Assembly: GCA_018649625.1 (NCBI GenBank)
Contig: JABIHN010000040.1
Coordinates: forward strand, 3,189-67,188
Source: Fidelibacterota bacterium
Lineage (GTDB): Bacteria > Fidelibacterota > Marinisomatia > Marinisomatales > UBA1611
Reading direction: 5' to 3'
DNA length: 64,000 nucleotides
This document shows positions 3,941 through 60,033 of the stretch, piece after piece. The notes under the pieces are model-generated. The model was not told the DNA's origin. It saw only the letters and a program-made list of their open reading frames with translations, and did not search any database. The position numbers and the translations under genes are program-made. Each line of letters opens with the position of its first letter. The stretch's first letter is position 1.

Positions 3941-4496
3941 ATAGATAATTAACAATTTCGTGATTGTCAAAATTTTCTATATATTTTTGATAAGTCCTTG
4001 AATCACCAAATTGATTTATTAATAATTGATTATCAAATAATATACCATTTCGGGATCCAATCCATTCAGGATAATTAGAAAATTCCCAATCTTCCAATTT
4101 TTCCACCAAATTTGCTCTTTTTGGATTTAGATGGATGTATGGGCAAATATCTATTAGATATCCTTCATCATTAATTTTTTTATGCTGCAGTTTATTGGCA
4201 AACATTTTTCCTTTTCGATTATATTTAGCATTGAAATGCAAAGCATAGGATATAATAAATCGATTAAAAACTTCATAAACAGGGCGCTCGTTTTTTTGTT
4301 GAATACAAAAGTGAAAATGATTGGGCATTAAACAATAAGCATACAGGGCTATTTCATCTTGTGAATAGTTGGCTTTGAACTTGTTTAAAAAATAAATGTA
4401 ATCATCCCGCTCATTGAATAAATCAATTTCATCCACGGAATGATTGTAGATATGAAAGATTGCTCCTTCTACAAATTCTTCTTTATTACATCTCAT
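3924..4496 (-). CDS. REP-associated tyrosine transposase (IS200/IS605-like Y1 HUH transposase family)
   Basis: HUH motif in LMPNHFHFCIQ; C-terminal Tyr motif CPYIHLNPKRANLV (RAYT-typical YIHxNP); 190 aa. Confidence 0.8.
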   Translation of the reverse strand: MRCNKEEFVEGAIFHIYNHSVDEIDLFNERDDYIYFLNKFKANYSQDEIALYAYCLMPNHFHFCIQQKNERPVYEVFNRFIISYALHFNAKYNRKGKMFANKLQHKKINDEGYLIDICPYIHLNPKRANLVEKLEDWEFSNYPEWIGSRNGILFDNQLLINQFGDSRTYQKYIENFDNHEIVNYLFNHKT

Positions 4497-18897: not shown

Positions 18898-19762
18898 TTA
18901 AGGGAAAATGGTCTGAAATCATGTTAGTTTGTTCTGTATCAATGATGTACGCTTTTTTGAAATTTTGAGACATAGCCGGTGATGCATAAATATAATCAAT
19001 CCGTCGAGAAATATTTTTGATAGCTTCCTGACTATGTTTTGAAAATGAATTAGAAGTGAATTTTCTTTGAGTTGGAAAAGTTGGATGATAGTTTTTCATT
19101 AGGTCTTTCATTTTACTTTTATCCAGCACTGATATGACTGAATAATCAAGTTCTCCATTATTTAGATTAAAATTACTGTTATAGATAGAATCCCTTTCAA
19201 TAAAATATTGATGAACGGTTGTAGCTTTATATTGGATACTATCTTTTGAGGAAAGGGCATTTAGATCGCCCAATAAAATTATATTTTTATTTTGTGTTTG
19301 GTTGATTTCATCCATGATAAATAAAATTTCTGTTTGACGTTCTTTATAGGTGAATGGAGAAAGGTGTGTATTGAAAAAATCAATTCCAGCAGTTCGACAG
19401 TGTTGTAAGCCATGAGCCATTTTATTCTGATTTATTTCAATTGTTTCGATAGGTTTTGCAGACGTTAGTCCCAAATGATACCCTGTTTTTGTTTGATATA
19501 AAGCTGAATATGTATGTCCCCATTGTTCGGCATCTGTTTTAAGTTTTTTTTTGGTATATCCGTTGAGTTCCTGCAGAGCAACAATATCCGGATTCTGTTC
19601 TTTCATCCATTCAATAAAAGCAGCGTACCGATCTGGAGCATCTTCAAATCCTTTCCACACATTGTAAGTAATTATCCGCAGTGGATTTGATTTATTAATT
19701 GATTGCTTATTAAAAACTAAAAAGGCAAGCAGCATTAAAGCGATAAGGAGAAATTTATTCAT
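18872..19762 (-). CDS. Secreted endonuclease/exonuclease/phosphatase (EEP) family protein (second copy)
   Basis: Signal peptide; LRIITYNVW and ISDHFPLIAEF EEP motifs; overlaps both neighbours by 8 nt or more. Confidence 0.75.
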   Translation of the reverse strand: MNKFLLIALMLLAFLVFNKQSINKSNPLRIITYNVWKGFEDAPDRYAAFIEWMKEQNPDIVALQELNGYTKKKLKTDAEQWGHTYSALYQTKTGYHLGLTSAKPIETIEINQNKMAHGLQHCRTAGIDFFNTHLSPFTYKERQTEILFIMDEINQTQNKNIILLGDLNALSSKDSIQYKATTVHQYFIERDSIYNSNFNLNNGELDYSVISVLDKSKMKDLMKNYHPTFPTQRKFTSNSFSKHSQEAIKNISRRIDYIYASPAMSQNFKKAYIIDTEQTNMISDHFPLIAEFNTHD

Positions 19763-21806
19763 AATTAATATTTTTTAACTGTCCACCATCCAATCGTCTA
19801 AAGCGGGCACAGGCGCCCCAACCACCACCTTTGTTTACAATTTTCATTAATAAAGTATTATGACCTTTTTGCAATATGACTTCTTGTACATCTTCACCAG
19901 CCGTCACTGTTCGACTGGCGTCATTCTCATGAATCAATTGACCGTTTAGCCAAGTTTTAATTCCGTCATTGCTTCCCATTTCTAATCGAACAGTTTGTGT
20001 TTTATTTGACCAAATATCAGTTTCTAAGTATACCACAGCAACCATTGGATTAATTACTTTGGCTAAATCTACATACCAATAACGGTTTGGATCAGAATCG
20101 TGGGGAACAGGTTGCCAATGTGCATATGCTCTTAATTCTGGCTCGAAGGCTGTGTCAAACAAAGAGTCTCCTTTATCTGTGAATGGTTGAGACATTCGCC
20201 AATTGATAATATGACCTTCATATTGCTCTGTTAGATTCAGCACTTGCTTATCATTAATGAGTTGTTTTTTAAGTAATGTATAATCTACATCCTGGATATT
20301 AATATTGTCTTGTATGGCTAAAACTGCTGCGGTAGCAGCGGATTGTCCTAATACCATAAAGACCGGTTCCATCCTGATAGAGCCAAAGGCAATGTGAGAT
20401 GCAGATAAGCACACAGGAACGAGCAAGTTTGTACATTCACTTATTTTAGGGATAATGGATCGGTAAGCGATAGGGTAGGGAGAAAAACCACCTAATTGTA
20501 CATCGCCTTCATTCCTTACATGTCCGCTACTATCGACATATCGCTGTACATGGTGAGAATCCATACTATACGCAGCCATGCCAACACCATCTTTGGATAT
20601 TTCATATCTCTGGCAATTGTGCTGTGTCATAACATAATCAGAAACCATACGGCGTGCTTCACGGATATATAATTGATGGGACCAATGACCATTGTCCACA
20701 AATTCATCTTTAGGTAATCCCCATTGATTCACTTCATCTTGAACCGATTTAGGGACTCTGGAATCATTAGCCAAAAACCACATAAGTCCTTTTTGATAAT
20801 CTTCATGTTCCTGAATAATTGCTTCCCGTGTGACATAATCACCATCGGGATAATCATAATTCATCCCAATATTGTCTGTGGCAAATCCACCTTTATTATT
20901 TGTATCTGTTTTTCCGTTTGGCATAGGTGTTGAAAGCTTTAGAACATCAAATACACCTGTATTCAGATAACGAAGAAGTAACTCGTATCGCATAGGATCA
21001 TAATGGTTAGGTTTAGGGAAAGGAAGTCTATTTTCTGGTATATTGGTCAAACACATACGAAAACAATACCCTTGGATTCTATGATCGCCGCTGCCTTCAT
21101 TTCCGGGGCCACCATCATTTTGAATACCGGGTAATAACCCACTATTAGGATCGCCGGGAATAATGTATGGATCGACAGGATGTTTAAAATTATGATACAC
21201 TGCACGTTTGGTTTGAACGCCATTGAGTGTTTCATCATAGACTTCATTAGACTCTCTACCGAACGTATATGATACACCGGCCTTAGCCATCAAGTCCCCT
21301 TCGTAAGTAGCATCAATGAACATTTTACCACGGAATGTTTTACCGGACTCCATTTGAATTTCTAAAATATGACTATCATTTTTTTTCATATTTTTGTTTA
21401 AGTCGATTCGTTCATTATAACTTACAGGAATATTATTTTCTAAAATAAAATCATTAAAAATATTTTCTGCTACATGGGGCTCGAATGTCCACATGGTTTT
21501 GTCCGAGATGGGAGTATTGTTATAGTGCGCATAAACCCGTTGATAAAATTCCCGAGATAAACCACCAATGGCATCTTTATTTCCAATATCAGTAGCCCCT
21601 AATCCACCCGCACTTAACCCACCTAAATGATTGCTCGGTTCAATTAACAATACAGAATATCCCATTCGGGCAGATTGAACAGCTGCTATAACACCTGCAG
21701 ATGTCCCGCCATAAACAATAATGTCATAGTTATTAAATCGGGTATTGCAGGAAGTATTTAATAGAATAGTTAAAGTGGCTATAGTTATTATTAGTAGTCT
21801 GTTCAT
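19755..21806 (-). CDS. Lipoprotein FAD-dependent oxidoreductase (FAD_oxidored / 'xanthan lyase'-annotated family) + 148-aa C-terminal recurrent module
   Basis: Lipobox LLNTSC; dinucleotide motif YDIIVYGGTSAGVIAAVQSARMG..IEP...LGG..AGG. The C-terminus (WRMSQPF...VRLEMGSNDGIKTWLNG...GGGWGACARFRRLDGG) is paralogous to the C-termini of the genes at 35797 and 40420. Confidence 0.8.
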   Translation of the reverse strand: MNRLLIITIATLTILLNTSCNTRFNNYDIIVYGGTSAGVIAAVQSARMGYSVLLIEPSNHLGGLSAGGLGATDIGNKDAIGGLSREFYQRVYAHYNNTPISDKTMWTFEPHVAENIFNDFILENNIPVSYNERIDLNKNMKKNDSHILEIQMESGKTFRGKMFIDATYEGDLMAKAGVSYTFGRESNEVYDETLNGVQTKRAVYHNFKHPVDPYIIPGDPNSGLLPGIQNDGGPGNEGSGDHRIQGYCFRMCLTNIPENRLPFPKPNHYDPMRYELLLRYLNTGVFDVLKLSTPMPNGKTDTNNKGGFATDNIGMNYDYPDGDYVTREAIIQEHEDYQKGLMWFLANDSRVPKSVQDEVNQWGLPKDEFVDNGHWSHQLYIREARRMVSDYVMTQHNCQRYEISKDGVGMAAYSMDSHHVQRYVDSSGHVRNEGDVQLGGFSPYPIAYRSIIPKISECTNLLVPVCLSASHIAFGSIRMEPVFMVLGQSAATAAVLAIQDNINIQDVDYTLLKKQLINDKQVLNLTEQYEGHIINWRMSQPFTDKGDSLFDTAFEPELRAYAHWQPVPHDSDPNRYWYVDLAKVINPMVAVVYLETDIWSNKTQTVRLEMGSNDGIKTWLNGQLIHENDASRTVTAGEDVQEVILQKGHNTLLMKIVNKGGGWGACARFRRLDGGQLKNINYE

Positions 21807-21833: not shown

Positions 21834-24341
21834 TTATTGTGTGGAATGGAATAACACTGCTGGTGGAATTTCTGATTTATTTATATTGTTGCTTTGCCAG
21901 CTAACCTTAATATTATGGGAGCCACCATTTTGAAAATATTTGACACCAATTTTATGCATTCCTTCTCTTAAGGCTATAGTATTATTTTTCTCTTTAATTG
22001 CATGTAGACCATCATTATCAATTAATATATTATTGTTAATGTATAATGCGGATCCATCATTGGACGATAAATAAAAAGTGTATAAATCGTCAGAAGGAAT
22101 TTTGATATATCCCTTAAAATCAAAGGAAAAATATTTTTCTCTGTCGCGGTCAATAATAGTAAAATTAGTACAAGTTCCGACATTCTGGGGCGTTGTCAGA
22201 CTAAACTTGTCGATTGTATTGAACTCTCCTTTGAAATAATTGAAAATGAGACCAGGTTCATAATGTGAAAGTTCTATTGAATTATCAAATTCAGTTTTTT
22301 CAAATAAATAGTTCGTGATCGGGCTAAATCTATCATCAAGGTAAGCTCGTAATTTGATGTGAGCCGATTTTGAAATATTGAACGAGCCAGTATACAAATG
22401 GGATGTGCGATCAGGTTTATCACCATTTAGGGTATAATAAATAGAAGCATTATCAGTGTCACAGAGAATTGAAATAGGGGTTTTGTTTAGAAAAAGATTG
22501 TCACCTTCTGAAATATAAGGAGCGGTTACAATCGATGAAAAATCAAACATAACAATATTATTTTTTTTATCTTCTGGAAAAGACATCACAGATAACATTC
22601 CGGCAGGAATATTTAGCTTTATCTCTGTGTCAGAATGGGAGACCATATATTCTTTCCCAATTAAAAATTTAATATTCCGACAGTTACCTTTTATAATTGC
22701 AGTTTGGTTAGCATCGAAATCTTTGACTTCACCGTCTACAGTTTTTGTTATACCCAGATTATTAAATATCCCTAATAAATATTTATCATTTGATCGTGCA
22801 TGTGCTGTACCTACTTTACCCTCCACCTGATAGGGGAAAAGATTATTAGCTATTTGAATAAAATAATCTGCATCACGTTTTTTCCCTTTGTAGATCTGAA
22901 CTTTTTCTTGCGGCATTGGTGAAGCGTTAGCCTGATTCTCGTTAAAATAGACAAAAAATTGATATTGATCTAATAACTCTTTAGGCGCATTGGCCGATAA
23001 AACATCAAAACTACTAATCCAGGGAGACGGAGTCAGGTTACCAGATTCTTTGCCTAATCCTTTTGGATGATCTGCATCAAGCACATCTTTTGCAAATGCT
23101 GATAGTCGTTTATGAAAAATATTTGGTTCAGCAATTTGATACAATTTAGAAATATTTCCAGCTATAAAGCGAATATCGACCCCAAAAGTATTTGGCGGCA
23201 TTATTAAAGCTATAGGAACAATAGGATTTGGCTTAGAATATTGATTATTGATTTTTTGAAAGTCTTTATTAATAGATCCGTATTCAGTTAACGGATAGTT
23301 ATCCCAATTACTAAAATAATTTTCAGCACCCCATTCTTCACTCCAATATGAAGAACCTGAAAGCCATGAATAATACAATAATCGGCGTTGGAGAGATCGA
23401 CTACTTCCGTAATTGGCTCCAATAGGGTTTTCCCTTTTAGAGTTATAGTTTAATATATCGACTGCTTCTGGGTACCATGGTGTAAAGTTAGTTGAACATA
23501 GACCACCAAATGGGAATCCGCCCCATGACTCATAATAAACGCCGAATGGTTTATTAAATTCTTTTCCAGCTCCCCTTGAGAAAGCAATTTGTAAAGCGGT
23601 TAGCGGTACTTGGTTTCCAATTTCAGCCATAATATTCTTCGCGCCTAATCGCAAAGCGCTATGTTGAAGTTGAATGAACCCGGTGACGGACATAACTTGG
23701 TTTGAAGCTCGATTTAGTATTTGTTTGAAATATTTTTCTATATAGTGTTCAACATCAGATAAATTAGATAGTGAGCGATAAAGATCTTTGTAAGTTTGAT
23801 AATCCCCTGCTGAAAAGTAAGGATATTCAGTTCTGCCTTCATAAGCGGCGAAATCTTGATATTCTAATCTATTCCCTGTTTTAGATTCAAGTTTTTTCAA
23901 GAAGTGATAATCATGTATAGGGGAATTACCCCATTCATGTACTTGAAATCCAAGGAAATTTGGGTCATCACTTAGTTTAGCCGAAACGGTCTCAATTCCT
24001 TTCAATGATTGAAATGGCATTCCACCGGAAATTCGGTCAATGTAATAGGGAAGACCAGAGTTCTGTGCTATGGATAATTTTTCAGAATGCTCCCATTGAT
24101 CACCGAACTGGTGTTGATGCATTCCCGTATTTAATAATCGATATCCTGTATTGTTGAGCAATCGATGTTTTTGTAATCCTTTACGAAATTGCGGATTTTC
24201 ATGTTGTAGGAATGTCATTCCTGGCAAATTCTGTAATTCTAAATCATTTTTTTTATTGGGTAGTTTATTACTATCACATGAAAATAGAGAGAACGCTAAG
24301 ATTATCAATATAATAGTTAAATATTTAGATATTTTTTTCAT
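21834..24341 (-). CDS. Lipoprotein of unknown function (~590-aa unassigned N-region) + chitobiase/hexosaminidase C-terminal-type domain + PA14-like domain
   Basis: Lipobox AFSLFSC. The C-terminal tandem (ASIYYTLNGDKPDRTSHLYTG..; YTFYLSSNDGSALYINNNILIDNDG...KYFQNGG) parallels the C-terminus of the adjacent GH20. I cannot place the N-region in any family. Confidence 0.55.
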   Translation of the reverse strand: MKKISKYLTIILIILAFSLFSCDSNKLPNKKNDLELQNLPGMTFLQHENPQFRKGLQKHRLLNNTGYRLLNTGMHQHQFGDQWEHSEKLSIAQNSGLPYYIDRISGGMPFQSLKGIETVSAKLSDDPNFLGFQVHEWGNSPIHDYHFLKKLESKTGNRLEYQDFAAYEGRTEYPYFSAGDYQTYKDLYRSLSNLSDVEHYIEKYFKQILNRASNQVMSVTGFIQLQHSALRLGAKNIMAEIGNQVPLTALQIAFSRGAGKEFNKPFGVYYESWGGFPFGGLCSTNFTPWYPEAVDILNYNSKRENPIGANYGSSRSLQRRLLYYSWLSGSSYWSEEWGAENYFSNWDNYPLTEYGSINKDFQKINNQYSKPNPIVPIALIMPPNTFGVDIRFIAGNISKLYQIAEPNIFHKRLSAFAKDVLDADHPKGLGKESGNLTPSPWISSFDVLSANAPKELLDQYQFFVYFNENQANASPMPQEKVQIYKGKKRDADYFIQIANNLFPYQVEGKVGTAHARSNDKYLLGIFNNLGITKTVDGEVKDFDANQTAIIKGNCRNIKFLIGKEYMVSHSDTEIKLNIPAGMLSVMSFPEDKKNNIVMFDFSSIVTAPYISEGDNLFLNKTPISILCDTDNASIYYTLNGDKPDRTSHLYTGSFNISKSAHIKLRAYLDDRFSPITNYLFEKTEFDNSIELSHYEPGLIFNYFKGEFNTIDKFSLTTPQNVGTCTNFTIIDRDREKYFSFDFKGYIKIPSDDLYTFYLSSNDGSALYINNNILIDNDGLHAIKEKNNTIALREGMHKIGVKYFQNGGSHNIKVSWQSNNINKSEIPPAVLFHSTQ

Positions 24342-35796: not shown

Positions 35797-38700
35797 TTAT
35801 TCTTTAAGCATATTTATCTTTATATTGGATAAGTGCCCACCATCCAATCGCCTTAATCTGGCGCATCCGCCCCAGCCACCACCTTCATTCACTATTTTCA
35901 TTAATAAAGTATTTTTACCTTTTTGCAAAGTGACTTCTTTTACATCTTCCCCTGCGGTAACACCACGACTTGCATCATTTACGTGAACTACTTGACCGTT
36001 CAGCCAAGTTTTAATGCCATCATTGCTACCCATTTCCAAGCGAACCGTTTGTTCTTCATCGGACCAAAACTCTGTTTCCATATAAATAGCTGCCACCATA
36101 CTTTTAATTATTTTAGCAAAATCCACATACCAATACCGGTTTGGATCAGAAAGTTTAGGCGCGATTGTCCAGTTTCTATAAATAGCTAACTCTGGGCCAA
36201 ATTTCGTATTAAAAATACTTTTATCCGTAGCCATAAAGGGTTCAGACATGCGCCATTCTGTTATATAATCATCAAAGATCTCAATCTGATTTAAAACTAA
36301 CTGTGCATTCTCTTGAATCGATTCATTAGATATATCCGAAATGATGTTTATCAAGACAGATTTGCATTCGATAGGATGTTCGGTGTGAATTCCATTGGCA
36401 ATACTAATGCAGGATGAAGCAGCTTCTGCTTTTATATCTGCCAAAAGTAAGTAGGTTTCGGCCATTTGAAATGCTGTTATGGACATGACCTTCGATAGTC
36501 CAGATAAAACGGCTTTTTTCTCTTGAATATTAGTTGCCAAAGCCATGGCCCGTTTATATAATTCATTCGTTGTTTCTGTAGTGCGGTCACTTTCTAATTC
36601 GATGAGCCTGATTATTCCACGAAGTGCTAATGTTTTATGACCTTGGATTTTGGCATTTTCCGTCACATCAAATAATATGGGAAGTGGTGAATCATTTTTC
36701 CATTCGGATAAAGCTTTAATAGCAGATTTTCGAATGTTTTTTTCGTCATGATTTAAAAACCCAAGTAGAGATTCGTAAGCTGGTTCGTATCCCAGTTGGC
36801 CTAAGATATGAATGGCCGTTTGTTTTGGCATGAATGAAATAGCATCCAATTGATTCATAATTTCTAAACCTACAGAATCATTTAGGTTATTTCGTTCTGC
36901 CATGATGACAATTGCTTTTTCCAATTCATCTCGATCTCTATCTGATTTTGAATGTTTCAGCAGATTTACCATTTCAAAAATGTGTGGTTTACTTGCAATA
37001 AAACGAAGTGCTTTTACAGATTCAACCCGAAGTGAAGCGTTGGTATTATTTGCCAAATTCAACATTAAATCAGCACCTTTAATAATTCGCCTTTTTTGAA
37101 CGGCTCGTATGAGTTCTATTTTCACTTTTTCTTTGGCATTTGGAATATTGGATAGAATTATATCATTAATATTGTTGCCATTAAGTCTGTATAAACTGTT
37201 TCGTGCGATAGTATGTTCTTTGCCTTTCCCATGAGCGGAGACATCTGCAAGCAAGGTAACGGACGATTCTAAATTAATATCTCCCAATGCATCTAATGCT
37301 GCCAAACGAACAGCATCATTTTCACTTTCTGTGGCTAACTTGATGGTTAAGAAGACTGTGGGGTAACCCCAAAATGGTGAAAGAGCAGAAATAAGTTGTA
37401 TCTGTCCATTCACAGGCAAGTGATTTACACTTTTGGCAACGATTGAAATATCATCGGAGTTTGTAAGTAGTGAAATGGACGAAATAGCTGTGGAAATTAT
37501 TTTTGGTTCCGATTCCTTTAATGCCTTCAGAATGATGAATCCTGCCTTTCCCGGTGATGATTGGATCAATCCACGAATGGCAGCCGATCGGATAACAGGA
37601 TTTTCATTGGGGCGGCTTAATTGAGTGAATATTTTTTTTGCCTTTTTAATTTCTCCGGATTTGAGCAATTGATTTCCACATTCAAGGTACGCATTCACTA
37701 GAGTTTCCCGTTGAGTTTCGGCGACTCTTTTGAGTGATTTCTTTAATATTTTTGCTGCTTTCCAAGTGCCGATATTTCCCAACGCAGTAGCGGAAGCAGT
37801 AGCGATATCAATATTATTTGACCAGATATATTTTTTCAATATTGAAACAGCATTCCTATCTTGTCTTGCGCCAAGCGTATTAATAATGCTTATTTTTACA
37901 TTATCATTCACAACTGATAATTTTCCCCGTAGAAGAGCATTTGTAGATTCACCGGGGATTCTTTTTAAAATATATAAAGCCGTTTCATAAAGATTAGGGT
38001 CATTGAATAATTTTGCGATTGATTCGGCTGAAGAAGGATCAGCAATAAGACTGTAATATTTCCCAATCACCTGCTTGGCAGGAGTGGATGCATCCGACAG
38101 TAAAAATGAAACCAATGATTTTTCAATTCGGGACAGATAATTCGGATTTCGATGTGCAACCCGAATCATATCTTCAATAACCGTTAGGTTTTTACGGTTA
38201 TCTCCGTAATTATAATTCTTTATGCTTTCCAGTACAGCGTCAAAATTTGGTTCAAAATATTTTTCCCAACTCCGAACCGTCACAGCATCAGGGAAATCCA
38301 ATGGAATTTCTTGAGTTACATTCCCCGTAGCAGCCCATTCTGTACCACGCTGAATTACAGTAATAAATCCACCACATTCTAAAGAACGATAGGGTACAGT
38401 GCCGGTTACATGACCCAATGGCGTATGAAAGACACGCCCCTTTCCATAATCTATAGTCATCATTACGGGCTCGTGTCGGCCACTGCCGTTTCGATCTGCG
38501 GGATTTGAATAAGCAGTTGCCAAAATCTGCATATTTTTTCCGAGCCCACGCAGATGGCTGTACAACTCATCTCTGCCGCGCATCCATTTTTCTGGTAATC
38601 CCTTTGTAATGGGATGATCCATATCACGGTTAATGACCTGAAATTCATGTTGGGGACCGTGTCCACCGGCTTCCCCGGGAGTCATGTCCCGAATGAATTT

Positions 38701-39153
38701 TCCATCCTGCCAATATATATAGGGGCCATCCTTTTCATCCCGATCACCCCAAGCACCAAGGCCAATGATGTCTAAATATTCGGGCCAGTCTCCAAAAGAA
38801 TTATTGGCTGCATGGACTAATACAACACCGCCACCGGATTTCACATAATCCACAAAGGCATCTTGAGTTTCTTTGGGCCATGATGCACCATTATAATCTA
38901 AAAATACCACATCATATTTATTGAAGTTTGGATGAAATATTTCTATTTCTTGACTCAAAGGTGGACGAATAGCCATGTCCACAGAAAATAATTCAGTTTG
39001 CTCCAAAATCTGTTTAAAGACAACGGAACTGACTTCCCATTTATGATTATTATGCCCGGTTACTATTAAGACTTTGTGTGGTGGCTTTACTGCCAAGAGA
39101 AGGGATATGGAAAAAATCCATATGGCGATTCTATTTCGGGTCAAATAGTCCAT
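35797..39153 (-). CDS. ThuA-like domain + extended HEAT-like repeat region + 152-aa C-terminal recurrent module
   Basis: ThuA pattern KVLIVTGHNNHKW...FNKYDVVFLDYNG..WP..TQ.AF..YV.SGGGVVLVHAANNSF..W.EY. HEAT/PBS-type repeats (AVRLAALDALGDI, ASLRVESVKALRFI, KNIRKSAIKALSEW). C-terminus WRMSEPF..VRLEMGSNDGIKTWLNG..GGGWGGCARLRRLDGG. No CxxCH motif. Confidence 0.75.
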   Translation of the reverse strand: MDYLTRNRIAIWIFSISLLLAVKPPHKVLIVTGHNNHKWEVSSVVFKQILEQTELFSVDMAIRPPLSQEIEIFHPNFNKYDVVFLDYNGASWPKETQDAFVDYVKSGGGVVLVHAANNSFGDWPEYLDIIGLGAWGDRDEKDGPYIYWQDGKFIRDMTPGEAGGHGPQHEFQVINRDMDHPITKGLPEKWMRGRDELYSHLRGLGKNMQILATAYSNPADRNGSGRHEPVMMTIDYGKGRVFHTPLGHVTGTVPYRSLECGGFITVIQRGTEWAATGNVTQEIPLDFPDAVTVRSWEKYFEPNFDAVLESIKNYNYGDNRKNLTVIEDMIRVAHRNPNYLSRIEKSLVSFLLSDASTPAKQVIGKYYSLIADPSSAESIAKLFNDPNLYETALYILKRIPGESTNALLRGKLSVVNDNVKISIINTLGARQDRNAVSILKKYIWSNNIDIATASATALGNIGTWKAAKILKKSLKRVAETQRETLVNAYLECGNQLLKSGEIKKAKKIFTQLSRPNENPVIRSAAIRGLIQSSPGKAGFIILKALKESEPKIISTAISSISLLTNSDDISIVAKSVNHLPVNGQIQLISALSPFWGYPTVFLTIKLATESENDAVRLAALDALGDINLESSVTLLADVSAHGKGKEHTIARNSLYRLNGNNINDIILSNIPNAKEKVKIELIRAVQKRRIIKGADLMLNLANNTNASLRVESVKALRFIASKPHIFEMVNLLKHSKSDRDRDELEKAIVIMAERNNLNDSVGLEIMNQLDAISFMPKQTAIHILGQLGYEPAYESLLGFLNHDEKNIRKSAIKALSEWKNDSPLPILFDVTENAKIQGHKTLALRGIIRLIELESDRTTETTNELYKRAMALATNIQEKKAVLSGLSKVMSITAFQMAETYLLLADIKAEAASSCISIANGIHTEHPIECKSVLINIISDISNESIQENAQLVLNQIEIFDDYITEWRMSEPFMATDKSIFNTKFGPELAIYRNWTIAPKLSDPNRYWYVDFAKIIKSMVAAIYMETEFWSDEEQTVRLEMGSNDGIKTWLNGQVVHVNDASRGVTAGEDVKEVTLQKGKNTLLMKIVNEGGGWGGCARLRRLDGGHLSNIKINMLKE

Positions 39154-40430
39154 GGTGCTCTCATGGGTCTGGATAAAAGTCGATTTGCTTCTGGATCGTT
39201 AGGGAAAATTTCTTTGTCCGGATCCCAAGTGAGTTTTCGTCCAGTCGTGATAGCGATTTCACCCAAATTGGGAACAGAAGTGGACCGATGCCCAACTTCA
39301 CATGGCGTAATCGTTTCTTTTCGAGATCGGATGCAATCTGCAAAATTTTGGTAATGATCTTTGCTGTCGTACAGATGAATCTCGTTGGGAGCAATCCATT
39401 CTTGTAATATGCTGGACGGTTCTGCTGAAATCTGTCCCCGACTTACATTCACCCAACCTTTATCTCCATACCAAGTAGCACCGCCTTTATTGCCACGATT
39501 AGCAACATTCAAATGAATTCCATTTTTATATTTATAATTCAGATTAAAATCGATTGGCACATTAAACATGCCTTCTTTTGGAATCGTGCCCGTGCCTTCC
39601 ACTTCCACAGGACCAGAACGATCTTCTCCCAAGCCCCACTGGGCGATATCAATATGATGGACACCCCAATCGGTCAGTCCGCCAAAACTATAATCCTGAA
39701 TGTAGCGCCAGCTATAATGGGCAATTTTCCGATAAGGAACTTTCGGTGCCGGTCCCAGCCAGAAATTCCAGTCCAATCCGTCTGGTACTGGAACGATAGG
39801 GTGGGGTTCCATGGCTGCTTTTCCTGCAGGAATGCCTACGGTTACATGATGTACTTTTCCTATGCGTCCATTTTGGACTAATTCACAAGCCAATCGAAAC
39901 CGCTCATCAGAACGCTGTTGGGTCCCCGTTTGAAAAATAACATTATATTGCTCCACCGCATTGCATAAAGCTCGACCTTCTTGAATGGTTCGTGTCAGTG
40001 GCTTTTGACTATAAATATCCAAGCCAGATTTTGCAGCAGCAATAGCCGCAGTGGCGTGCCAATGATCGGGCGTCGCAATATGAACAGCATCTAAATCTGT
40101 TCGTTGGAGTAATTCCCTGAAATCAGAATACAAAGCACAATCTTCATTATCGTTCGTAGCATCTACTATACTTTTTCCTCGCATTAAGTTTGCACGATCT
40201 ACATCACAAACGGCCACGAAGTGAACACCATCTTTATGGATAAGATTGCGAAGATCCACACGACCTTGGCCACCCAAGCCAATGGATGCCATAATGATTC
40301 GGTCGCTTGGGGCAGTATGGCCATCTCGTCCTAAAGCTCGTGCAGAAATAAACATGGGTATTGCTGCAGCGCCTATTAAAGCGCTGGATGATTTAATAAA
40401 TTGCCGTCTGTTTATTTTTTTATCGTTCAT
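39141..40430 (-). CDS. Tat-exported Gfo/Idh/MocA-family oxidoreductase
   Basis: Twin-arginine signal NRRQFIKSSSALIGAAA; Rossmann MASIGLGGQG; YSQKPL motif. Overlaps the upstream gene by 11 nt and the downstream gene by 13 nt. Confidence 0.85.
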   Translation of the reverse strand: MNDKKINRRQFIKSSSALIGAAAIPMFISARALGRDGHTAPSDRIIMASIGLGGQGRVDLRNLIHKDGVHFVAVCDVDRANLMRGKSIVDATNDNEDCALYSDFRELLQRTDLDAVHIATPDHWHATAAIAAAKSGLDIYSQKPLTRTIQEGRALCNAVEQYNVIFQTGTQQRSDERFRLACELVQNGRIGKVHHVTVGIPAGKAAMEPHPIVPVPDGLDWNFWLGPAPKVPYRKIAHYSWRYIQDYSFGGLTDWGVHHIDIAQWGLGEDRSGPVEVEGTGTIPKEGMFNVPIDFNLNYKYKNGIHLNVANRGNKGGATWYGDKGWVNVSRGQISAEPSSILQEWIAPNEIHLYDSKDHYQNFADCIRSRKETITPCEVGHRSTSVPNLGEIAITTGRKLTWDPDKEIFPNDPEANRLLSRPMRAPWTI

Positions 40431-42693
40431 ATTTTACATTAGCAAGATGTCCACCGTCTATTCTTCGTAATCGAGCACAAGCGCCCCATCCGCCACCGCC
40501 TTCATTGATAATTTTAAGTAGAAGTGTATTCCAGCCTTTGTTTAATTGTGCTTCAACTACATCATCGCCTGGCGTAACACCACGAGCTACGGAATGTAAA
40601 TGAACCATATCATCATTCATCCATGCTTTGATTCCGTCATTACTTCCCATTTCCAGCCGAACCGTCTGATCAATTTCCGACCAAACTTTTGTTTTAAGAT
40701 ATACCACAGCAACCAAACTTGTTTTCAGTCCAGTCAAATCTACATGCCAATAATTATTTGGATCTGAAAAAGCAGGTACTTTTCGCCATAAAGAATAAGC
40801 ATCCCTATCCTTTTCAGGTGCAAATTCTGTGGCATACATACTTTGTCCCGATATCATAAAAGGTTCAGACATGACCCATTCTGTAATATAATCTTCCAAC
40901 TTTTGAATATTATTAAGCACAGCCTGTGCAAGTTGGCTATGTTGATCGTTAGATGAATCGGTTATAATATTTTCAATAACGGCGCCACATTCATTGGGGT
41001 AAAGGGATTGAATATTATTGGCAATTGCGAGACAAGCTGCTTCTGCATGTTCGATTAATGCATTATCTTTAAGAAAATCCTCTGCTGTATAAAATGCTTC
41101 GATAGTTTTAATACCGTGTAATCCACGCAATGCTGCTTTAGTCTCATTTTCATTTTGGCAAGAAGAAAATACTTTTCCATACAATTTGATAGCTTCATCA
41201 ACAGGACGATAAAGTTCCACGCCAATCAGTTTTACGGCACCTTCGGCAGCCAATATTCGTTGATCGGGATCATTAGAAGATGCCAAGATATCCATTATGG
41301 AAGAAAGGGGCTGGTCGTCGTTCCAGCCTGATAAAGCAATGATGGCCGCTATTTGAACATCTGAAGATGGGTCGTTTAATAATGTTGTTAGTGTTTTTAA
41401 CGTTTCACTATCTTTGTGTTTCCCAAGAATACGAATAAAAGATAAACGCGCTTTCTGTTCTTTGGTTTTCTTGAGAGCATCTACCATTAATTTGATATCT
41501 ATTTTTGAAGAACTTGTCATCATTAACCCATTGATGGTTCCTTCTAATTCAGTCCGTTCTGAATCGGTTTTTGCGCTAACCAATAACTGAATGCAATCTT
41601 CCAAATAAGGTTTTGATGCTATGACTTTCAAAGTTTTTACCGCTTCTAAACGAACATTACCATTTTTATTTGTCGCTAATTTTAGAATGGTTTTGATGCT
41701 GTTATTAATCCGCCTTTCACCAACAGCACGAATAAATTCAACCTTTATATCGGAATTTCGATTGGATAGGCCGGATTGAATGGCGCTATCTATTTTTGAC
41801 CCATTCAAATTATATAAACTATTTTGTGCAACTATTTTTTCTTCACCATTACTTTTAGCAGCATGGGATGCCAAAATTTTCACAACTTTTGGGTCTGGTA
41901 TTTGTCCTGCTAAATCCAAGGCAACAAGTCGAATATTTTGATTCTTATTATTGATTGAAGAAAGAATAACTTTTTTGACGTTTGGTTCATTAGCGTAAGG
42001 ATGCAGGGATGATAATAATTGAATTTGTTCAGGATCGGAAAGAGAATGAAAATCGATTATGGAAGAAGCTACATTGACAAATTCCGTCAATTGAATATCC
42101 CGCCAGCGTACACGAACATTATCACCTGAATGGATTTGAAGTGCAATGGAACCTACACCTTTACCAATTTTCGGATCGTTCATATCAACCATTTTAATAC
42201 CATTGAGCCACGTTTGAACGCGGTCACCAATTACTTTTATGCGAAGTTTATTCCAGCTGCCTTGAGCTAAAACCGATTCTTTGCTCTCTGGGATTTTTTC
42301 TAGCCAACCGCGGCCGTATGATTCATAAATACCGCCTGTATCTTTTCCTTTAGGTGCCACTTCAACTTGCCAACCGGTTACTTTTGTACCTTCAAATGTG
42401 GACCGAAAAAATACACCGCTGTTTCCATCTGATTCCTGTTTAAAAAGAAGCGATAAATCAAAGTCTTTGTATTGTTTGATAGTGGAAAGATAACCGTATT
42501 CATGATCTGGACCACTTTCACACACTAATTCACCCATTTCAACATACCAGTTTTCTGTGCCGTGGACTTCCCATCCTTCTAGGTTTAATCCATTAAATAA
42601 ATTATTATTATGGATTGATTCATCCGGCAACTGGGAAGAGTAAACGAATCCAGGTATTAATATTGCAATTAATGATAGTTTCTTTAGCATCAC
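40420..42693 (-). CDS. DUF1080 (3-keto-disaccharide-hydrolase-like) domain + HEAT-like repeat region + 152-aa C-terminal recurrent module
   Basis: Signal peptide. DUF1080 pattern LFNGLNLEGWEVHG..W.VE.GELV...FDLSLLFK..SDGNSGVFFR...WQVEV...GGIYE...WNKLRIKV.GDRVQTWLNG...IALQIH. The HEAT region is paralogous to the gene at 35797. C-terminus WVMSEPF..VRLEMGSNDGIKAWMN..GGGGWGACARLRRIDGG. No CxxCH motif. Confidence 0.75.
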   Translation of the reverse strand: MMLKKLSLIAILIPGFVYSSQLPDESIHNNNLFNGLNLEGWEVHGTENWYVEMGELVCESGPDHEYGYLSTIKQYKDFDLSLLFKQESDGNSGVFFRSTFEGTKVTGWQVEVAPKGKDTGGIYESYGRGWLEKIPESKESVLAQGSWNKLRIKVIGDRVQTWLNGIKMVDMNDPKIGKGVGSIALQIHSGDNVRVRWRDIQLTEFVNVASSIIDFHSLSDPEQIQLLSSLHPYANEPNVKKVILSSINNKNQNIRLVALDLAGQIPDPKVVKILASHAAKSNGEEKIVAQNSLYNLNGSKIDSAIQSGLSNRNSDIKVEFIRAVGERRINNSIKTILKLATNKNGNVRLEAVKTLKVIASKPYLEDCIQLLVSAKTDSERTELEGTINGLMMTSSSKIDIKLMVDALKKTKEQKARLSFIRILGKHKDSETLKTLTTLLNDPSSDVQIAAIIALSGWNDDQPLSSIMDILASSNDPDQRILAAEGAVKLIGVELYRPVDEAIKLYGKVFSSCQNENETKAALRGLHGIKTIEAFYTAEDFLKDNALIEHAEAACLAIANNIQSLYPNECGAVIENIITDSSNDQHSQLAQAVLNNIQKLEDYITEWVMSEPFMISGQSMYATEFAPEKDRDAYSLWRKVPAFSDPNNYWHVDLTGLKTSLVAVVYLKTKVWSEIDQTVRLEMGSNDGIKAWMNDDMVHLHSVARGVTPGDDVVEAQLNKGWNTLLLKIINEGGGGWGACARLRRIDGGHLANVKYER

Positions 42694-58518: not shown

Positions 58519-60033
58519 ATGTGGGTATTCACCAAAACTTTATTGTTATTCGTTATTGGGCTTATTGGGTTTTCTTGCGCTCCGGAACTATATGTAGAAA
58601 TTGAAGCAGATCAACGCATGGGTGATTGGGCAGGAACTCGAATAAATAAAGAAGGTAGAGAAGTACCCATGGCAGCTCAATTGATCGCTTATAAAAATGG
58701 TCGGTTTACGGCAAACCTTTTAACAGAGTTCGATAAAAAAGATAATCATTTGGCCACCATCAGTGGTAAGGTAAAAGGAAATGAGATTCAGCTCATTGGT
58801 TCCTACAAATATGGATCACGGTGGAAAGGCATTGTGACAGATTCATCTTTCAATGGTACATATCATGGACAGAGTCATGGCACATTTGCCTTGAAGAGAG
58901 TAACCCGATTATCTCCAAATTTGGGAAAAGAAGCACCAGAAGGAGCTATTGTATTATTTAATGGTTCCAATTTGGATGCATGGACCCACGAATCCAGTGT
59001 TCCTGGTTATATTGATTTATCCAAACATGTAGGCGGGAGTGAATGCGCTGAATACTTAAAAGCTAAAGTTTGGTCCTATATAGATCAAGACGCTATTTTA
59101 GAATTGGGAAGTAATGATGGTATTGCAGGCTGGTTGAATGGTGAAAAAATCATTTCTGAAAATGTATTAAGACGAGCAAGTGCTGGGGAAGAAGCGGTTA
59201 GAGTTTCACTTAAATCCGGATGGAATCAATTCTTAATGAAAATTGTGAATGCAGGTGGCGGTTGGGGTATGTTTGCTCGGTTGACAGATGATGATGGCAA
59301 TCCATTAAGTACTATTTCTGAATATGTGGATGGTGTTCAATCAAGAGATTTTCTGACTAAAAATGATAATTATTTAACACTTTGGGATATGGCTGGTCCT
59401 TATAGAATTAAAGGAAAAAATGGTCGAGAAATTTTCGACCATCCATTTCCACCGGAAAAAAATGATTCAAATGTAGAATGGACAAAATTAGATATTCATA
59501 AATTAGGTGATGCCGCTCAATGGATTATAAAAAATGAAGCAGTTGAAATAAAACCGGGTACATCGGGAATGCTCACGCGACAGAAATTCAGAAACTTCAC
59601 ATTACATATTGAATTTCGCTTACCCTTCATGCCAAATTCGAATGGGCAAGGCCGTGGAAATAGTGGTGTTTATCTTCAAGGTCGGTATGAAGTTCAAGTT
59701 TTAGATAGTTATGGCTTGGAAGGCAAGGATAATGAATGCGGTGGTATCTATAAAGTGGGTGCGCCGGCAGTGAATATGTGTGCGCCACCTATGCAATGGC
59801 AATCCTATGATATTGATTTTACTGCACCAATATTTAATAAAACCGGAAAAAAGATTATCGATGCTCGAGTAACCGTGAATCATAATGGAGTGATTATTCA
59901 TGATAATGTTGTTATTCCAAAACCTACGGGTGGAGCTGTAAATATGAATACAGATAAACCGGGCGTTTTATTGTTGCAAGATCATGGGAATCCTGTGCAA
60001 TATAGAAATATTTGGATTGTTGAAAATAATTAA
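58519..60033 (+). CDS. Lipoprotein with unassigned N-domain and a DUF1080 domain interrupted by a copy of the recurrent module
   Basis: Lipobox LIGFSC. The first DUF1080 strand LFNGSNLDAW (aa ~146-155) is separated from the rest (WIIKNEAVEIKPG..FRNFTLHIEFR..GNSGVYLQGRYEVQVLD..GGIYK..WQSYDIDF...VNHNGV...LLLQDHGNPVQYRNIWI) by AILELGSNDGIAGWLNG...GGGWGMFARL plus YLTLWDMAGPY. Confidence 0.7.
   Translation: MWVFTKTLLLFVIGLIGFSCAPELYVEIEADQRMGDWAGTRINKEGREVPMAAQLIAYKNGRFTANLLTEFDKKDNHLATISGKVKGNEIQLIGSYKYGSRWKGIVTDSSFNGTYHGQSHGTFALKRVTRLSPNLGKEAPEGAIVLFNGSNLDAWTHESSVPGYIDLSKHVGGSECAEYLKAKVWSYIDQDAILELGSNDGIAGWLNGEKIISENVLRRASAGEEAVRVSLKSGWNQFLMKIVNAGGGWGMFARLTDDDGNPLSTISEYVDGVQSRDFLTKNDNYLTLWDMAGPYRIKGKNGREIFDHPFPPEKNDSNVEWTKLDIHKLGDAAQWIIKNEAVEIKPGTSGMLTRQKFRNFTLHIEFRLPFMPNSNGQGRGNSGVYLQGRYEVQVLDSYGLEGKDNECGGIYKVGAPAVNMCAPPMQWQSYDIDFTAPIFNKTGKKIIDARVTVNHNGVIIHDNVVIPKPTGGAVNMNTDKPGVLLLQDHGNPVQYRNIWIVENN

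What the first reader, a model, noticed from the sequence alone, without database searches (positions are those of the whole stretch)
19755..20201. Recurrent ~150-aa C-terminal module (W.MS.PF ... VRLEMGSNDGIK.WLNG ... GGGWG.CAR.RR.DGG) on four proteins with different catalytic domains
Seen in sequence: the module ends the FAD oxidoreductase (19755-20201), the ThuA-HEAT protein (35797-36255) and the DUF1080-HEAT protein (40420-40878). A diverged copy lies inside the DUF1080 lipoprotein (core about 59041-59313). Copies A and B are also similar at nucleotide level, with shared runs such as attttcattaataaagtatt, ttgaccgtt.agccaagttttaat and acataccaata.cggtttggatcagaa. That points to recent duplication or domain shuffling. 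The core motif resembles PA14 or galactose-binding jelly-rolls (..DG...W.NG....). It is clearly distinct from the canonical PA14 copies in this window, which sit on hydrolases only (GH3 insert, GH20 and the 835-aa protein). The window therefore shows a partition: hydrolases carry PA14, while redox or DUF1080 proteins carry this module. Inference: it may be a shared substrate-binding, docking or localisation tag for the oxidative branch. The conserved Cys in WG.CAR is present in three of the four copies.
Basis: partly seen in the sequence, partly recalled or inferred. Interest (0 to 1): 0.75.

Follow-up and report, generated by a model that had tools for sequence, protein, structure and literature searches.

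The report
Unclassified PA14-like sugar-binding domain
Four exported proteins of this marine Marinimicrobia genome share a roughly 160-residue domain that is a distant, uncatalogued relative of the PA14 sugar-binding fold, and in many bacterial phyla it caps a HEAT-repeat arm on proteins of the periplasmic 3-keto-glycoside sugar-cleavage pathway.

Summary
Exactly four copies lie at the stated places: A-B 66-67% aa, B-C 56-58%, D about 42%.

The module has a 48-aa N-terminal segment (W.V.GPY...F.PE...W) and a 110-aa core (GS[DN]DGIK.WLNG...K[IV].[NQ].GGGWG). Pfam and NCBIfam do not cover it. Profile-profile comparison (92%, E 5e-7) and Foldseek on a pLDDT-91.5 model place it as a divergent PA14-type beta-sandwich. 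It keeps the DcisD-N/Q positions that hold the sugar-binding Ca2+ in PA14 lectins.

The family is large: 3377 clusters at E<=1e-10.
- Of the 150 closest, 112 are HEAT-repeat arm plus module, and 133 carry it C-terminally.
- The cassette is fused to ThuA, DUF1080 or a xylose-isomerase-like TIM barrel.
- At 12 loci in four named phyla plus two unassigned MAGs it follows a GFO/IDH/MocA gene.

These partners are the parts of the 3-keto-glycoside pathway.

The "hydrolases carry PA14, redox proteins carry the module" split fails outside this window: relatives sit on GH123, GH31, GH78, GH4, GSDH, peptidase C25, RHS and GGDEF proteins. The Cys is only 61% conserved.

Copy D is circularly permuted. Sugar binding is inferred, not shown.

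The parts
19755..20231 (-). Module copy A (N-terminal segment plus PA14-like core, includes the stop codon). It forms the C-terminus of the 683-aa lipoprotein-type FAD_oxidored (PF12831) protein.
   Evidence: HMM hit aa 526-683. Pfam covers only aa 28-516. Similarity to B is confined to the module.
35797..36288 (-). Module copy B, the C-terminus of the 1118-aa ThuA + HEAT protein.
   Evidence: HMM hit about aa 956-1115. This copy was the sequence modelled by AF2, pLDDT 91.5.
36304..38256 (-). HEAT-repeat arm of protein B (about aa 300-950). It precedes the module and forms a conserved cassette with it.
   Evidence: Pfam HEAT_2 E 8e-27. Homologous to the HEAT arm of C (42% over 536 aa including the module). 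112 of the 150 closest family representatives have this arm.
39141..40430 (-). GFO/IDH/MocA oxidoreductase with a twin-arginine-like N-terminus (NRRQFIK). It overlaps both flanking module genes, by 11 nt and 13 nt.
   Evidence: Pfam. Coordinates. Orthologues lie directly upstream of HEAT-module genes at 12 loci from four named phyla plus two taxonomically unassigned MAGs.
40420..40911 (-). Module copy C, the C-terminus of the 757-aa DUF1080 (3keto-disac_hyd) + HEAT protein.
   Evidence: HMM hit about aa 595-756.
40924..42081 (-). HEAT-repeat arm of protein C (about aa 205-590).
   Evidence: Pfam HEAT_2 E 2.9e-23. blastp against B.
58984..59316 (+). Module copy D, PA14-like core only (about aa 156-266), internal to the 504-aa lipoprotein.
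   Evidence: Broad family HMM positions 46-156, i-E 3.4e-39.
59359..59505 (+). Displaced N-terminal segment of copy D (about aa 281-329, DNYLTLWDMAGPYRIKGK..FDHPFPPEK..VEW). It lies after the core and directly before the DUF1080 domain, which amounts to a circular permutation.
   Evidence: N-segment HMM i-E 6.9e-11 and broad HMM i-E 3.1e-9. The same order occurs in L012, L014, L016 and L018.

Best explanation
**Shown.**
- The module is a genuine, widespread domain of about 160 residues. It has a 48-residue N-terminal segment and a 110-residue core that is a remote homologue of PA14.
- It folds as a PA14-like beta-sandwich and is not represented in Pfam or NCBIfam.

**Shown by alignment.** It retains the three positions that in lectin-type PA14 domains hold the sugar-binding calcium ion.
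- The Asp-cis-Asp pair corresponds here to [D/N]-D in GS[DN]DG. All four window copies read N-D.
- The Asn/Gln that opens calcium-binding loop 2, 44 residues later, corresponds here to [NQ].GGGWG.

**Inferred.** The module is a Ca2+-dependent glycan- or glycoside-binding unit.

**Shown.**
- In its closest relatives the module caps a HEAT-repeat arm.
- That cassette is fused to ThuA, DUF1080 or a xylose-isomerase-like TIM barrel.
- It is encoded immediately after a GFO/IDH/MocA oxidoreductase gene. The window's copy has a twin-arginine-type N-terminus.
- In this window the three genes overlap.

These partners are the components of the periplasmic oxidation-elimination (3-keto-glycoside) route of glycoside cleavage.

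**Inferred.**
- The HEAT arm with its PA14-like tip acts as a substrate-capturing or substrate-positioning accessory that works with the GFO dehydrogenase and its partner enzymes.
- The module alone was later moved onto the FAD oxidoreductase (copy A).
- A circularly permuted form was built into a DUF1080 protein (copy D).
For: **Not in curated libraries.** No Pfam or NCBIfam match over the module. 103 relatives are all named 'hypothetical' with no Pfam domain over the module.

**Fold and homology.**
- AF2 with a 44-sequence alignment gives pLDDT 91.5 and an all-beta sandwich.
- Foldseek against PDB: the best hits are PA14 lectins (Cea1A 5a3l, MpPA14 6x8a and others) and the PA14 insert of K. 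marxianus beta-glucosidase (3abz, 3ac0), followed by CBM35 and the GH2 N-terminal domain.
- hhalign against the window's own PA14 copies gives 87% and 92% probability, E 4e-6 and 5e-7, over 73-74 columns. GSNDG aligns on SSNDG, and KIVN.GGGWG aligns on KYFQNGGSHN.

**Calcium-site positions.**
- A PDB profile search aligns gsdDGikaWLNg with VTDDGVRLWVDG of RsgI3 PA14-A and with ANGGVRVWINN of PA14-B.
- That matches the published description of the DcisD motif and of its N-G loss in PA14-B (PMC6852018). The published D87-to-Q130 spacing is 43 residues; here it is 44.
- PA14 DcisD-bound Ca2+ binds the sugar diols directly (PMC8092209).
- Conservation over 236 family segments: first position D 83% / N 14%; second D 98%; loop-opening Q 50% / N 44%; W 93%.

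**Architecture.** 112 of 150 closest representatives have HEAT then module, and 133 of 150 carry it at the C-terminus. Fusions seen are ThuA-HEAT-module, DUF1080-HEAT-module, AP_endonuc_2-HEAT-module, ThuA-module and GSDH-module.

**Gene neighbourhood.** An orthologue of the 39141-40430 GFO gene lies directly upstream of the host gene at L002, L004, L008, L011, L012, L013, L017, L019, L020, L021, L024 and L025. These include MAGs labelled Neomarinimicrobiota, Planctomycetes, Lentisphaeria and Verrucomicrobia, one Kiritimatiellia MAG and one unclassified MAG.

**Pathway roles from the literature.** GFO acts as the 3-dehydrogenase, DUF1080 as lyase/hydratase, and the sugar-phosphate-isomerase-like protein as lyase; the components carry export signals pointing to the periplasm (bioRxiv 10.1101/2024.03.25.586180; PMC8121099).

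**Export signals (read directly from the sequences).** All four hosts start with a hydrophobic N-terminal stretch of the export-signal type. In A and D it ends in a Cys, as in a lipoprotein signal.
Against: - No binding experiment exists, and no solved structure of a family member.
- Structural similarity to PA14 is modest (TM-score 0.44-0.53, best Foldseek E 3.5e-5).
- The Pfam PA14 model fails on all four copies.
- The cis peptide and the Ca2+ site cannot be verified from sequence. The window copies read N-D rather than D-D.
- The loop that sets specificity in PA14 lectins is almost invariant here (GGGWG), although the hosts should act on different sugars. That fits a common ligand or a protein partner better than substrate-specific binding.
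- Some relatives sit on proteins with no evident carbohydrate role: GGDEF, RHS and peptidase C25.
- Some PA14 domains bind no sugar (recalled, not tested here: the GH3 insert of K. marxianus beta-glucosidase is described as shaping the active site).
- The GFO adjacency was assessed with phmmer on 39 loci chosen by a sequence pattern, not on an unbiased census.
Confidence: 0.55

Rival explanations
1. The module is a protein-protein docking or assembly domain. The tip of the HEAT arm binds the neighbouring GFO dehydrogenase, or another module protein, so that a multi-subunit periplasmic complex is held together. The conserved surface is a protein interface, not a sugar site.
For: - The GFO gene is conserved immediately next to HEAT-module genes, and in the window the reading frames overlap, which suggests co-translation.
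- GGGWG, R109, K132 and R145 are nearly invariant regardless of the fused enzyme.
- Two module proteins flank one GFO gene in the window.
- Tandem module-module proteins are common (36 of 150 have two copies).
Against: - Copy A and many relatives (GH123, GH31, GH78, GH4 and GSDH hosts) have no HEAT arm, and no GFO homologue was detected beside these hosts.
- The conserved residues coincide with the PA14 Ca2+/sugar triad.
- In the PA14 lectin structures consulted here the partners are carbohydrates (PMC8092209, PMC6852018).
Confidence: 0.2
2. The module is a localisation tag. It binds one common envelope glycan, such as peptidoglycan, LPS core or a capsule sugar, and so retains exported enzymes at a fixed place in the periplasm or on the cell surface.
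For: - The putative ligand loop is the same across hosts with very different predicted activities.
- All four window hosts start with export-signal-type N-termini, and two of these end in a Cys as in lipoproteins (read from the sequences).
- The module is nearly always the C-terminal domain (133 of 150).
Against: - No known envelope-binding motif is present.
- The strongest association is with one pathway (GFO, ThuA, DUF1080, TIM barrel) rather than with exported proteins in general.
- The module is spread across phyla with very different envelopes, including Thermoplasmata archaea.
Confidence: 0.12
3. The module is a non-binding structural domain. It is a PA14-like sandwich that only stabilises the enzyme or sterically shapes its active site, as has been proposed for the PA14 insert of GH3 beta-glucosidase.
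For: - The PA14 insert of K. marxianus beta-glucosidase is among the best Foldseek hits (3abz, 3ac0).
- In copy D the module is inserted inside a DUF1080 protein, next to the catalytic domain.
Against: - In most relatives a 400-650-residue HEAT arm separates the module from the catalytic domain. That arrangement does not suit shaping an active site.
- The DcisD-N/Q positions are 94-98% conserved, which is more than a purely structural role would require.
Confidence: 0.1
4. The module is a redox or cofactor domain that uses the conserved Cys. It would take the C-terminal place that a cytochrome c domain holds in PVC-type HEAT proteins. That architecture is recalled from memory and was not tested here.
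For: - The Cys is present in three of four window copies.
- The hosts are redox-linked.
Against: - The Cys is conserved in only 61% of family segments and is replaced by S, A or Y.
- There is no CxxCH or other cofactor motif.
- The fold is a PA14-like sandwich.
- NCBIfam finds no haem-domain model.
Confidence: 0.03

Closest known systems
PA14 domain (Pfam PF07691), lectin type: yeast Flo/Epa/Cea1 adhesins, Marinomonas MpPA14, clostridial RsgI PA14 dyads
   Same: - Beta-sandwich fold; these are the best Foldseek hits.
- The core signature s-D-D-G-x(3)-W/Y-x-N/D-G and the Q/N-x-G-G loop align.
- The DcisD-N/Q calcium triad positions are conserved (PMC6852018, PMC8092209).
- Tandem copies occur, as in the RsgI dyads.
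   Different: - The Pfam PA14 model does not detect the module.
- TM-score is only 0.44-0.53.
- It has its own 48-residue N-terminal segment, W.V.GPY...F.PE...W.
- The loop that varies and sets specificity in PA14 lectins is nearly invariant here (GGGWG).
- The typical context is the C-terminus of a HEAT-repeat arm rather than an adhesin stalk or a GH3 insert.
CBM35 / CBM6-type carbohydrate-binding modules
   Same: Jelly-roll sandwich of similar size appended to carbohydrate-active enzymes. Foldseek E is 1.8e-4 to 8e-4 (2w3j, 2wz8). Recalled, not tested here: CBM35 members bind sugars with the help of Ca2+.
   Different: No sequence similarity was detected by Pfam or by the PDB profile searches. 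The signature motifs are of PA14 type.
Galactose-binding-domain-like N-terminal domains of GH2 enzymes, and the insert of sialate O-acetylesterases (7kmm)
   Same: Weak profile hits: 7kmm E 0.018 and GH2 beta-glucuronidases E 0.6-0.9. Foldseek E is about 1e-3 to LacZ and beta-glucuronidases.
   Different: hhalign against the window's own esterase insert gives no signal (probability 0.1%). These domains lack the DD...N/Q signature alignment.
Components of the periplasmic 3-keto-glycoside pathway: GFO/IDH/MocA dehydrogenase, DUF1080 lyase/hydratase, sugar-phosphate-isomerase-like lyase, and ThuAB
   Same: The module's hosts and neighbours are exactly these families. The characterised Bacteroides and Alistipes proteins also carry export signals pointing to the periplasm (bioRxiv 10.1101/2024.03.25.586180; PMC8121099).
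   Different: As those two papers describe them, the characterised Bacteroides/Alistipes and Agrobacterium/Sinorhizobium proteins have no HEAT arm and no PA14-like module. The cassette described here is an add-on of unknown role.

Membership tests
PA14 domain (Pfam PF07691) | Matches the Pfam PA14 profile at or above the gathering score (24 bits) | tested here: not met
   No PA14 hit at E<=1 on any of the four host proteins. The three canonical copies in the window score 50-66 bits. Two relatives reach only sub-threshold partial hits, 23.5 and 24.6 bits with no passing stretch.
PA14 domain (Pfam PF07691) | PA14-type beta-sandwich fold | tested here: met
   AF2 model pLDDT 91.5. Foldseek best hits are PA14 lectins and the GH3 PA14 insert, probability 1.0, but TM-score only 0.44-0.53.
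PA14 domain (Pfam PF07691) | Remote sequence homology to bona fide PA14 domains | tested here: met
   hhalign of the family alignment against the window's three Pfam-confirmed PA14 copies: 87% probability / E 4e-6 and 92% / E 5e-7 over 73-74 core columns. The family core HMM hits the 835-aa protein's PA14 at E 5e-5.
Lectin-type PA14 (Flo/Epa, MpPA14, RsgI) | DcisD-N calcium-binding signature: two consecutive Asp on beta-5 plus Asn/Gln at the start of CBL2 | tested here: inconclusive
   The positions align and are conserved: D/N 97%, D 98%, Q/N 94%. The window copies read N-D...N. The cis peptide and the bound Ca2+ cannot be verified without a structure.
Lectin-type PA14 (Flo/Epa, MpPA14, RsgI) | Ca2+-dependent carbohydrate binding | not testable with these tools
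   Needs ITC, glycan arrays or a crystal structure of the isolated module.
CAZy carbohydrate-binding module families (e.g. CBM35, CBM6) | Sequence membership in a defined CBM family | tested here: not met
   No CBM Pfam model matches the four hosts. PDB profile searches give no significant hit. CAZy families without a Pfam model or a structure could not be checked.
HEAT-module cassette as partner of a GFO dehydrogenase (proposed here, not an established family) | HEAT arm directly N-terminal to the module, and a GFO/IDH/MocA gene adjacent on the same strand | tested here: met
   Met for B and C, which overlap the GFO gene at 39141-40430, and for 12 loci elsewhere. Not met for A and D, which have no HEAT arm.

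The most novel reading that the evidence does not exclude
HEAT-repeat proteins tipped with this PA14-like domain are dedicated accessory subunits of a periplasmic GFO-type glycoside 3-dehydrogenase complex. This would be a so far undescribed multi-subunit form of the oxidation-elimination pathway of glycan cleavage. The solenoid arm and its Ca2+ lectin tip would capture glycans and feed them to the dehydrogenase and to lyases (ThuA, DUF1080, TIM barrel) fused to the same arm. The system would be widespread in marine Marinimicrobia, Planctomycetota, Verrucomicrobiota, Lentisphaerota and Kiritimatiellia.
Probability: 0.3. Interest if true: 0.7.

Novelty: new variant of a known kind. Interest (0 to 1): 0.5.

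Why it matters
The 3-keto (oxidation-elimination) route of glycoside cleavage was worked out only recently, in gut Bacteroidota. Its reach in the ocean and in PVC bacteria is unknown.

This domain marks thousands of uncharacterised proteins: 3377 clusters at E<=1e-10. Public annotation calls them 'hypothetical' or 'HEAT repeat protein'. The domain ties many of them, by fusion and by gene order, to that pathway. The window's host proteins themselves recur on about 90-120 contigs each in public data.

- Defining the domain as a Pfam or CBM entry would improve annotation of marine glycan-degrading loci.
- If the domain binds sugars, it gives a handle on which glycans these abundant, uncultured Marinimicrobia attack.
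- If it docks the GFO enzyme instead, it reveals a new enzyme-complex architecture.

Tried and rejected
- **Single-sequence word-index search** with copy B returned nothing, although the host proteins are in the collection. This is a limit of the word index, not evidence of rarity. The exhaustive profile search found 8614 clusters at E<=1e-3. The weak tail probably includes ordinary PA14-like domains, so I quote the 1e-10 figure.
- **First AF2 model** from only four sequences reached pLDDT 70. Its Foldseek result agreed with the later one but was not relied on.
- **PDB sequence search** with the four-sequence profile gave only a spurious TFIIE hit.
It was replaced by local phmmer classification with the window's own domains plus four targeted Pfam calls.
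- **Literature searches** for the architecture (ThuA / HEAT / PA14 / DUF1080 / cytochrome c) found no description of the module.
- **Recent duplication** was rejected from codon-level identity and the paralogue/orthologue matrix.
- **A functional role for the Cys** was rejected on its conservation.
- **Kinship with the GH2_N-like insert** of the window's sialate esterase was rejected.
- **Replacement of a cytochrome c domain** (PVC-type HEAT proteins, recalled from memory) was considered. It could not be tested beyond noting that NCBIfam found no haem-domain model.


Full report
**1.

ORF listing shows the motif block W.MS.PF ... VRLEMGSNDGIK.WLNG ... GGGWG.CAR.RR.DGG at the C-terminus of three proteins:
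- the 683-aa protein at 19755-21806 (-);
- the 1118-aa protein at 35797-39153 (-);
- the 757-aa protein at 40420-42693 (-).

A diverged copy (ILELGSNDGIAGWLNG ... GGGWGMFARL) lies inside the 504-aa protein at 58519-60033 (+).

Pfam assigns the host domains as follows:

| Copy | Host domains |
|---|---|
| A | FAD_oxidored, aa 28-516 |
| B | ThuA + HEAT repeats |
| C | 3keto-disac_hyd (DUF1080) + HEAT repeats |
| D | 3keto-disac_hyd, aa 333-500 |

Neither Pfam nor NCBIfam covers the module. The only trace is a faint F5_F8_type_C_2 hit, E 0.12.

Identity to the reference copy is 65-66% (A-B), 55-57% (B-C) and 42-43% (D). An HMM of the module scanned over all six reading frames finds exactly these four copies.

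**2. Anatomy**

A family-wide HMM splits the module into two parts:
- a 48-residue N-terminal segment, consensus I..W.V.GPY...GK..LFD..FPPE....V.W;
- a core of about 110 residues, consensus AYLRT.V.S...Q.A.LELGSDDGIKVWLNG..VH.NN..R.....D.V.V.L..GWN.LLLKV.Q.GGGWGACAR.R..DG.

In A, B and C the order is segment then core.

In D the core comes first (about aa 156-266, i-E 3.4e-39). The segment follows at about aa 281-329 (i-E 6.9e-11 with a segment-only HMM), directly before the DUF1080 domain. The other DUF1080 proteins of the window lack this segment, so D carries a circularly permuted module.

The same order, with the same extra N-terminal region, recurs in Marinimicrobia loci L016 and L018, in a Nitrospiraceae MAG (L014) and in a Planctomycetes MAG (L012, there fused to ThuA).

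**3. What the fold is**

- With four sequences AF2 gave pLDDT 70. With 44 sequences it gave pLDDT 91.5 and pTM 0.88, an all-beta sandwich.
- Foldseek against PDB puts PA14 lectins first: Cea1A (5a3l), Marinomonas MpPA14 (6x8a and related entries) and an RTX-adhesin PA14 (6m8m).
- The PA14 insert of K. marxianus beta-glucosidase (3abz, 3ac0) ranks with them. CBM35 and GH2 N-terminal domains follow.
- The best E is 3.5e-5 and TM-scores are 0.44-0.53, so there is no close solved relative.
- Profile-profile comparison of the family with the window's three Pfam-confirmed PA14 copies gives 87% probability / E 4e-6. With the broader alignment it gives 92% / E 5e-7 over 74 core columns.
- The same comparison against the GH2_N-like insert of the window's sialate esterase gives nothing.
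- Pfam's PA14 model itself fails on all four copies.

The module is therefore a divergent PA14-superfamily domain, not a member of PF07691 as currently defined.

**4. A retained calcium/sugar site (inference)**

PA14 lectins bind sugars through a Ca2+ ion. The ion is held by an Asp-cis-Asp pair on strand 5 and by an Asn or Gln at the start of calcium-binding loop 2. The sugar's vicinal hydroxyls coordinate the ion directly (PMC8092209, PMC6852018).

- The PDB profile search aligns the module's gsdDGikaWLNg with VTDDGVRLWVDG of RsgI3 PA14-A, and with ANGGVRVWINN of PA14-B.
- That matches the paper's statement that in PA14-B the two Asp are replaced by Asn and Gly.
- The published spacing from the second Asp to the loop Gln is 43 residues; in the module it is 44.
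- Conservation over 236 family segments is: first position D 83% / N 14%; second position D 98%; loop-opening position Q 50% / N 44%; the following GGGW has W at 93%.
- All four window copies read N-D ... N. The first position is Asn rather than Asp; an Asn side chain could in principle still offer an oxygen ligand (inference).

One caveat matters. The loop that varies and sets specificity in PA14 lectins is nearly invariant here. That fits a generic ligand or a protein partner as well as it fits sugar binding.

**5. Distribution and partners**

The exhaustive profile search finds 8614 clusters at E<=1e-3, 3377 at E<=1e-10 and 387 at E<=1e-30. The weak tail probably includes ordinary PA14-like domains.

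Genome hits span Neomarinimicrobiota (96% identity to B in MAG NIOZ-UU60), Planctomycetota, KSB1, Lentisphaeria, Verrucomicrobiota, Kiritimatiellia, Hydrogenedentota, Armatimonadia, Chloroflexota, Sumerlaeota and Thermoplasmata archaea.

Among the 150 closest representatives:
- 112 have the HEAT arm directly before the module;
- 133 carry the module at the C-terminus;
- 43 have two to four copies.

Recurrent architectures are ThuA-HEAT-module (about 1110 aa), HEAT-module (about 850-890 aa), HEAT-module-module (sometimes followed by ThuA), DUF1080-HEAT-module and HEAT-module-DUF1080. Pfam adds AP_endonuc_2 (xylose-isomerase-like TIM barrel)-HEAT-module in Kiritimatiellia, and ThuA-module.

More distant relatives sit on the following:
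- sugar-active enzymes: GSDH sugar dehydrogenases, GH123, GH31, GH78, GH4 and a GDSL esterase;
- other contexts: purple-acid-phosphatase-type fn3 arrays, an RHS protein, a GGDEF protein and archaeal peptidase C25.

The FAD_oxidored fusion appears once among the 150 representatives (P0001, the window protein itself) and once more in a Marinimicrobia MAG (L003).

**6. Gene context**

In the window, gene C, a GFO/IDH/MocA gene with a twin-arginine-like N-terminus (39141-40430) and gene B overlap by 11 and 13 nt.

In the fetched loci, an orthologue of this particular GFO gene lies immediately upstream of the HEAT-module host at L002, L004, L008, L011, L012, L013, L017, L019, L020, L021, L024 and L025. 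It lies nearby at L007 and L010.

Copy D sits between a GFO gene, a stand-alone DUF1080 gene and another GFO gene. That order is conserved at L016, L018 and L023.

Published work assigns the neighbouring families to one pathway (bioRxiv 10.1101/2024.03.25.586180; PMC8121099):
- periplasmic GFO enzymes with tightly bound cofactor act as glycoside 3-dehydrogenases;
- DUF1080 proteins act as 3-keto-glycoside lyases/hydratases;
- 'sugar phosphate isomerase' TIM barrels act as 3-keto-beta-glucoside lyases;
- ThuAB acts as a 3-keto-disaccharide-forming dehydrogenase.

The closest subfamily of the module is thus tied, by fusion and by gene order, to every component of that pathway.

**7. History**

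- B and C are homologous across HEAT arm plus module (42% over 536 aa). A matches B only over the module (66% over 163 aa), with a sharp boundary. The cassette was therefore duplicated as a unit, and the module alone was moved onto the FAD oxidoreductase.
- The duplication is not recent. A-B is 70% identical at nucleotide level and 52% at third codon positions, in a 37% G+C genome.
- Types B, C and D have closer orthologues in other Marinimicrobia MAGs (B 71-95%, C 70-84%, D 76-88%) than their 39-66% identity to any paralogue in the window. Type A has an orthologous FAD_oxidored-module protein in another MAG (L003), 64% identical to A.

**8. Verdict**

The finding is a real domain, widespread and uncatalogued. 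It belongs to a known fold class (PA14-like) and has a distinctive N-terminal segment, a preferred HEAT-arm context and a permuted form.

The most likely role is Ca2+-dependent glycan capture for the periplasmic 3-keto-glycoside machinery (confidence about 0.55). The main rivals are docking to the GFO enzyme and anchoring to a common envelope glycan.

The in-window split between PA14 on hydrolases and the module on redox proteins is real, but it rests on few cases (three against four) and does not generalise. One of the three 'hydrolases', the 835-aa protein, has no recognised catalytic domain.

Public annotation names the hosts 'FAD-dependent oxidoreductase', 'HEAT repeat protein/type 1 glutamine amidotransferase', 'DUF1080 domain-containing protein' and 'hypothetical protein'. 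All are from Candidatus Marinimicrobia MAGs, and none of the names mentions the module.

Noticed in passing
window 58519-60033 (+); also L012:130-2742, L014:5437-7035, L016:5509-7026, L018:5506-7065: Copy D is circularly permuted: the PA14-like core comes first, then the 48-aa N-terminal segment, then DUF1080. The stretch just before the core (EGAIVLFNGSNLDAW) looks like the first strand of a DUF1080 domain, so the core may be an insertion into DUF1080. The arrangement is conserved in Marinimicrobia, Nitrospiraceae and Planctomycetes MAGs.
   Followed up: partly
window 35797-42693 (-): The three genes DUF1080-HEAT-module, GFO and ThuA-HEAT-module overlap by 11 and 13 nt, which suggests translational coupling. 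The GFO / HEAT-module gene pair recurs at loci from four named phyla plus two unassigned MAGs (L002, L004, L008, L011, L012, L013, L017, L019, L020, L021, L024, L025).
   Followed up: partly
window 33598-35772 (-): A 724-aa protein directly downstream of the ThuA-HEAT-module gene has no Pfam match at all. Its homologue also follows module genes at L001 and L005.
   Followed up: no
window 21834-24341 (-): The 835-aa 'hydrolase' with canonical PA14 has only CHB_HEX_C_1, Fn3_assoc and PA14 hits in its last 215 residues. The first 600 or so residues have no recognised catalytic domain. Homologues lie next to module genes at L003 and L006.
   Followed up: no
window 1840-3273 (+): A single 477-aa protein fuses a xylose-isomerase-like TIM barrel (AP_endonuc_2) with DUF1080. 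These are the two lyase types of the 3-keto-glycoside pathway in one chain. A homologue is at L002:30-1508.
   Followed up: no
L034:2270-5020 and L036:214-2835 (Thermoplasmata / Euryarchaeota MAGs): Archaeal proteins combine a peptidase C25-like domain, two tandem module cores (without the N-terminal segment) and a Big_7 domain. This context is unrelated to sugar oxidation.
   Followed up: no
L003:2-2095 and L006:8734-12363: In sister Marinimicrobia MAGs a shorter module-like core (HMM positions 66-139, E about 1e-12) ends a 698-aa protein with no Pfam hit. It also ends a 1210-aa protein with weak GH20b and CBM56 hits. These are intermediates between the module and canonical PA14, and they sit on non-redox proteins.
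   Followed up: partly
window 3924-4496 (-): An IS200-like Y1 transposase ORF (Y1_Tnp, E 7.7e-6) lies between the sugar-metabolism genes.
   Followed up: no
window 61441-62757 (+): A Sortilin/BNR-repeat protein carries a type IX secretion C-terminal sorting domain (Por_Secre_tail). This indicates a T9SS in this Marinimicrobia genome.
   Followed up: no
whole window: The window holds seven GFO/IDH/MocA genes (334, 28464, 39141, 51438, 56489, 60054, plus ThuB-like pairing), five proteins with a DUF1080 domain and two TIM-barrel lyase-type genes. These sit beside GH3, GH20, GH28, GH38, a SASA esterase and BNR proteins. The locus therefore mixes hydrolytic and oxidation-elimination routes.
   Followed up: partly
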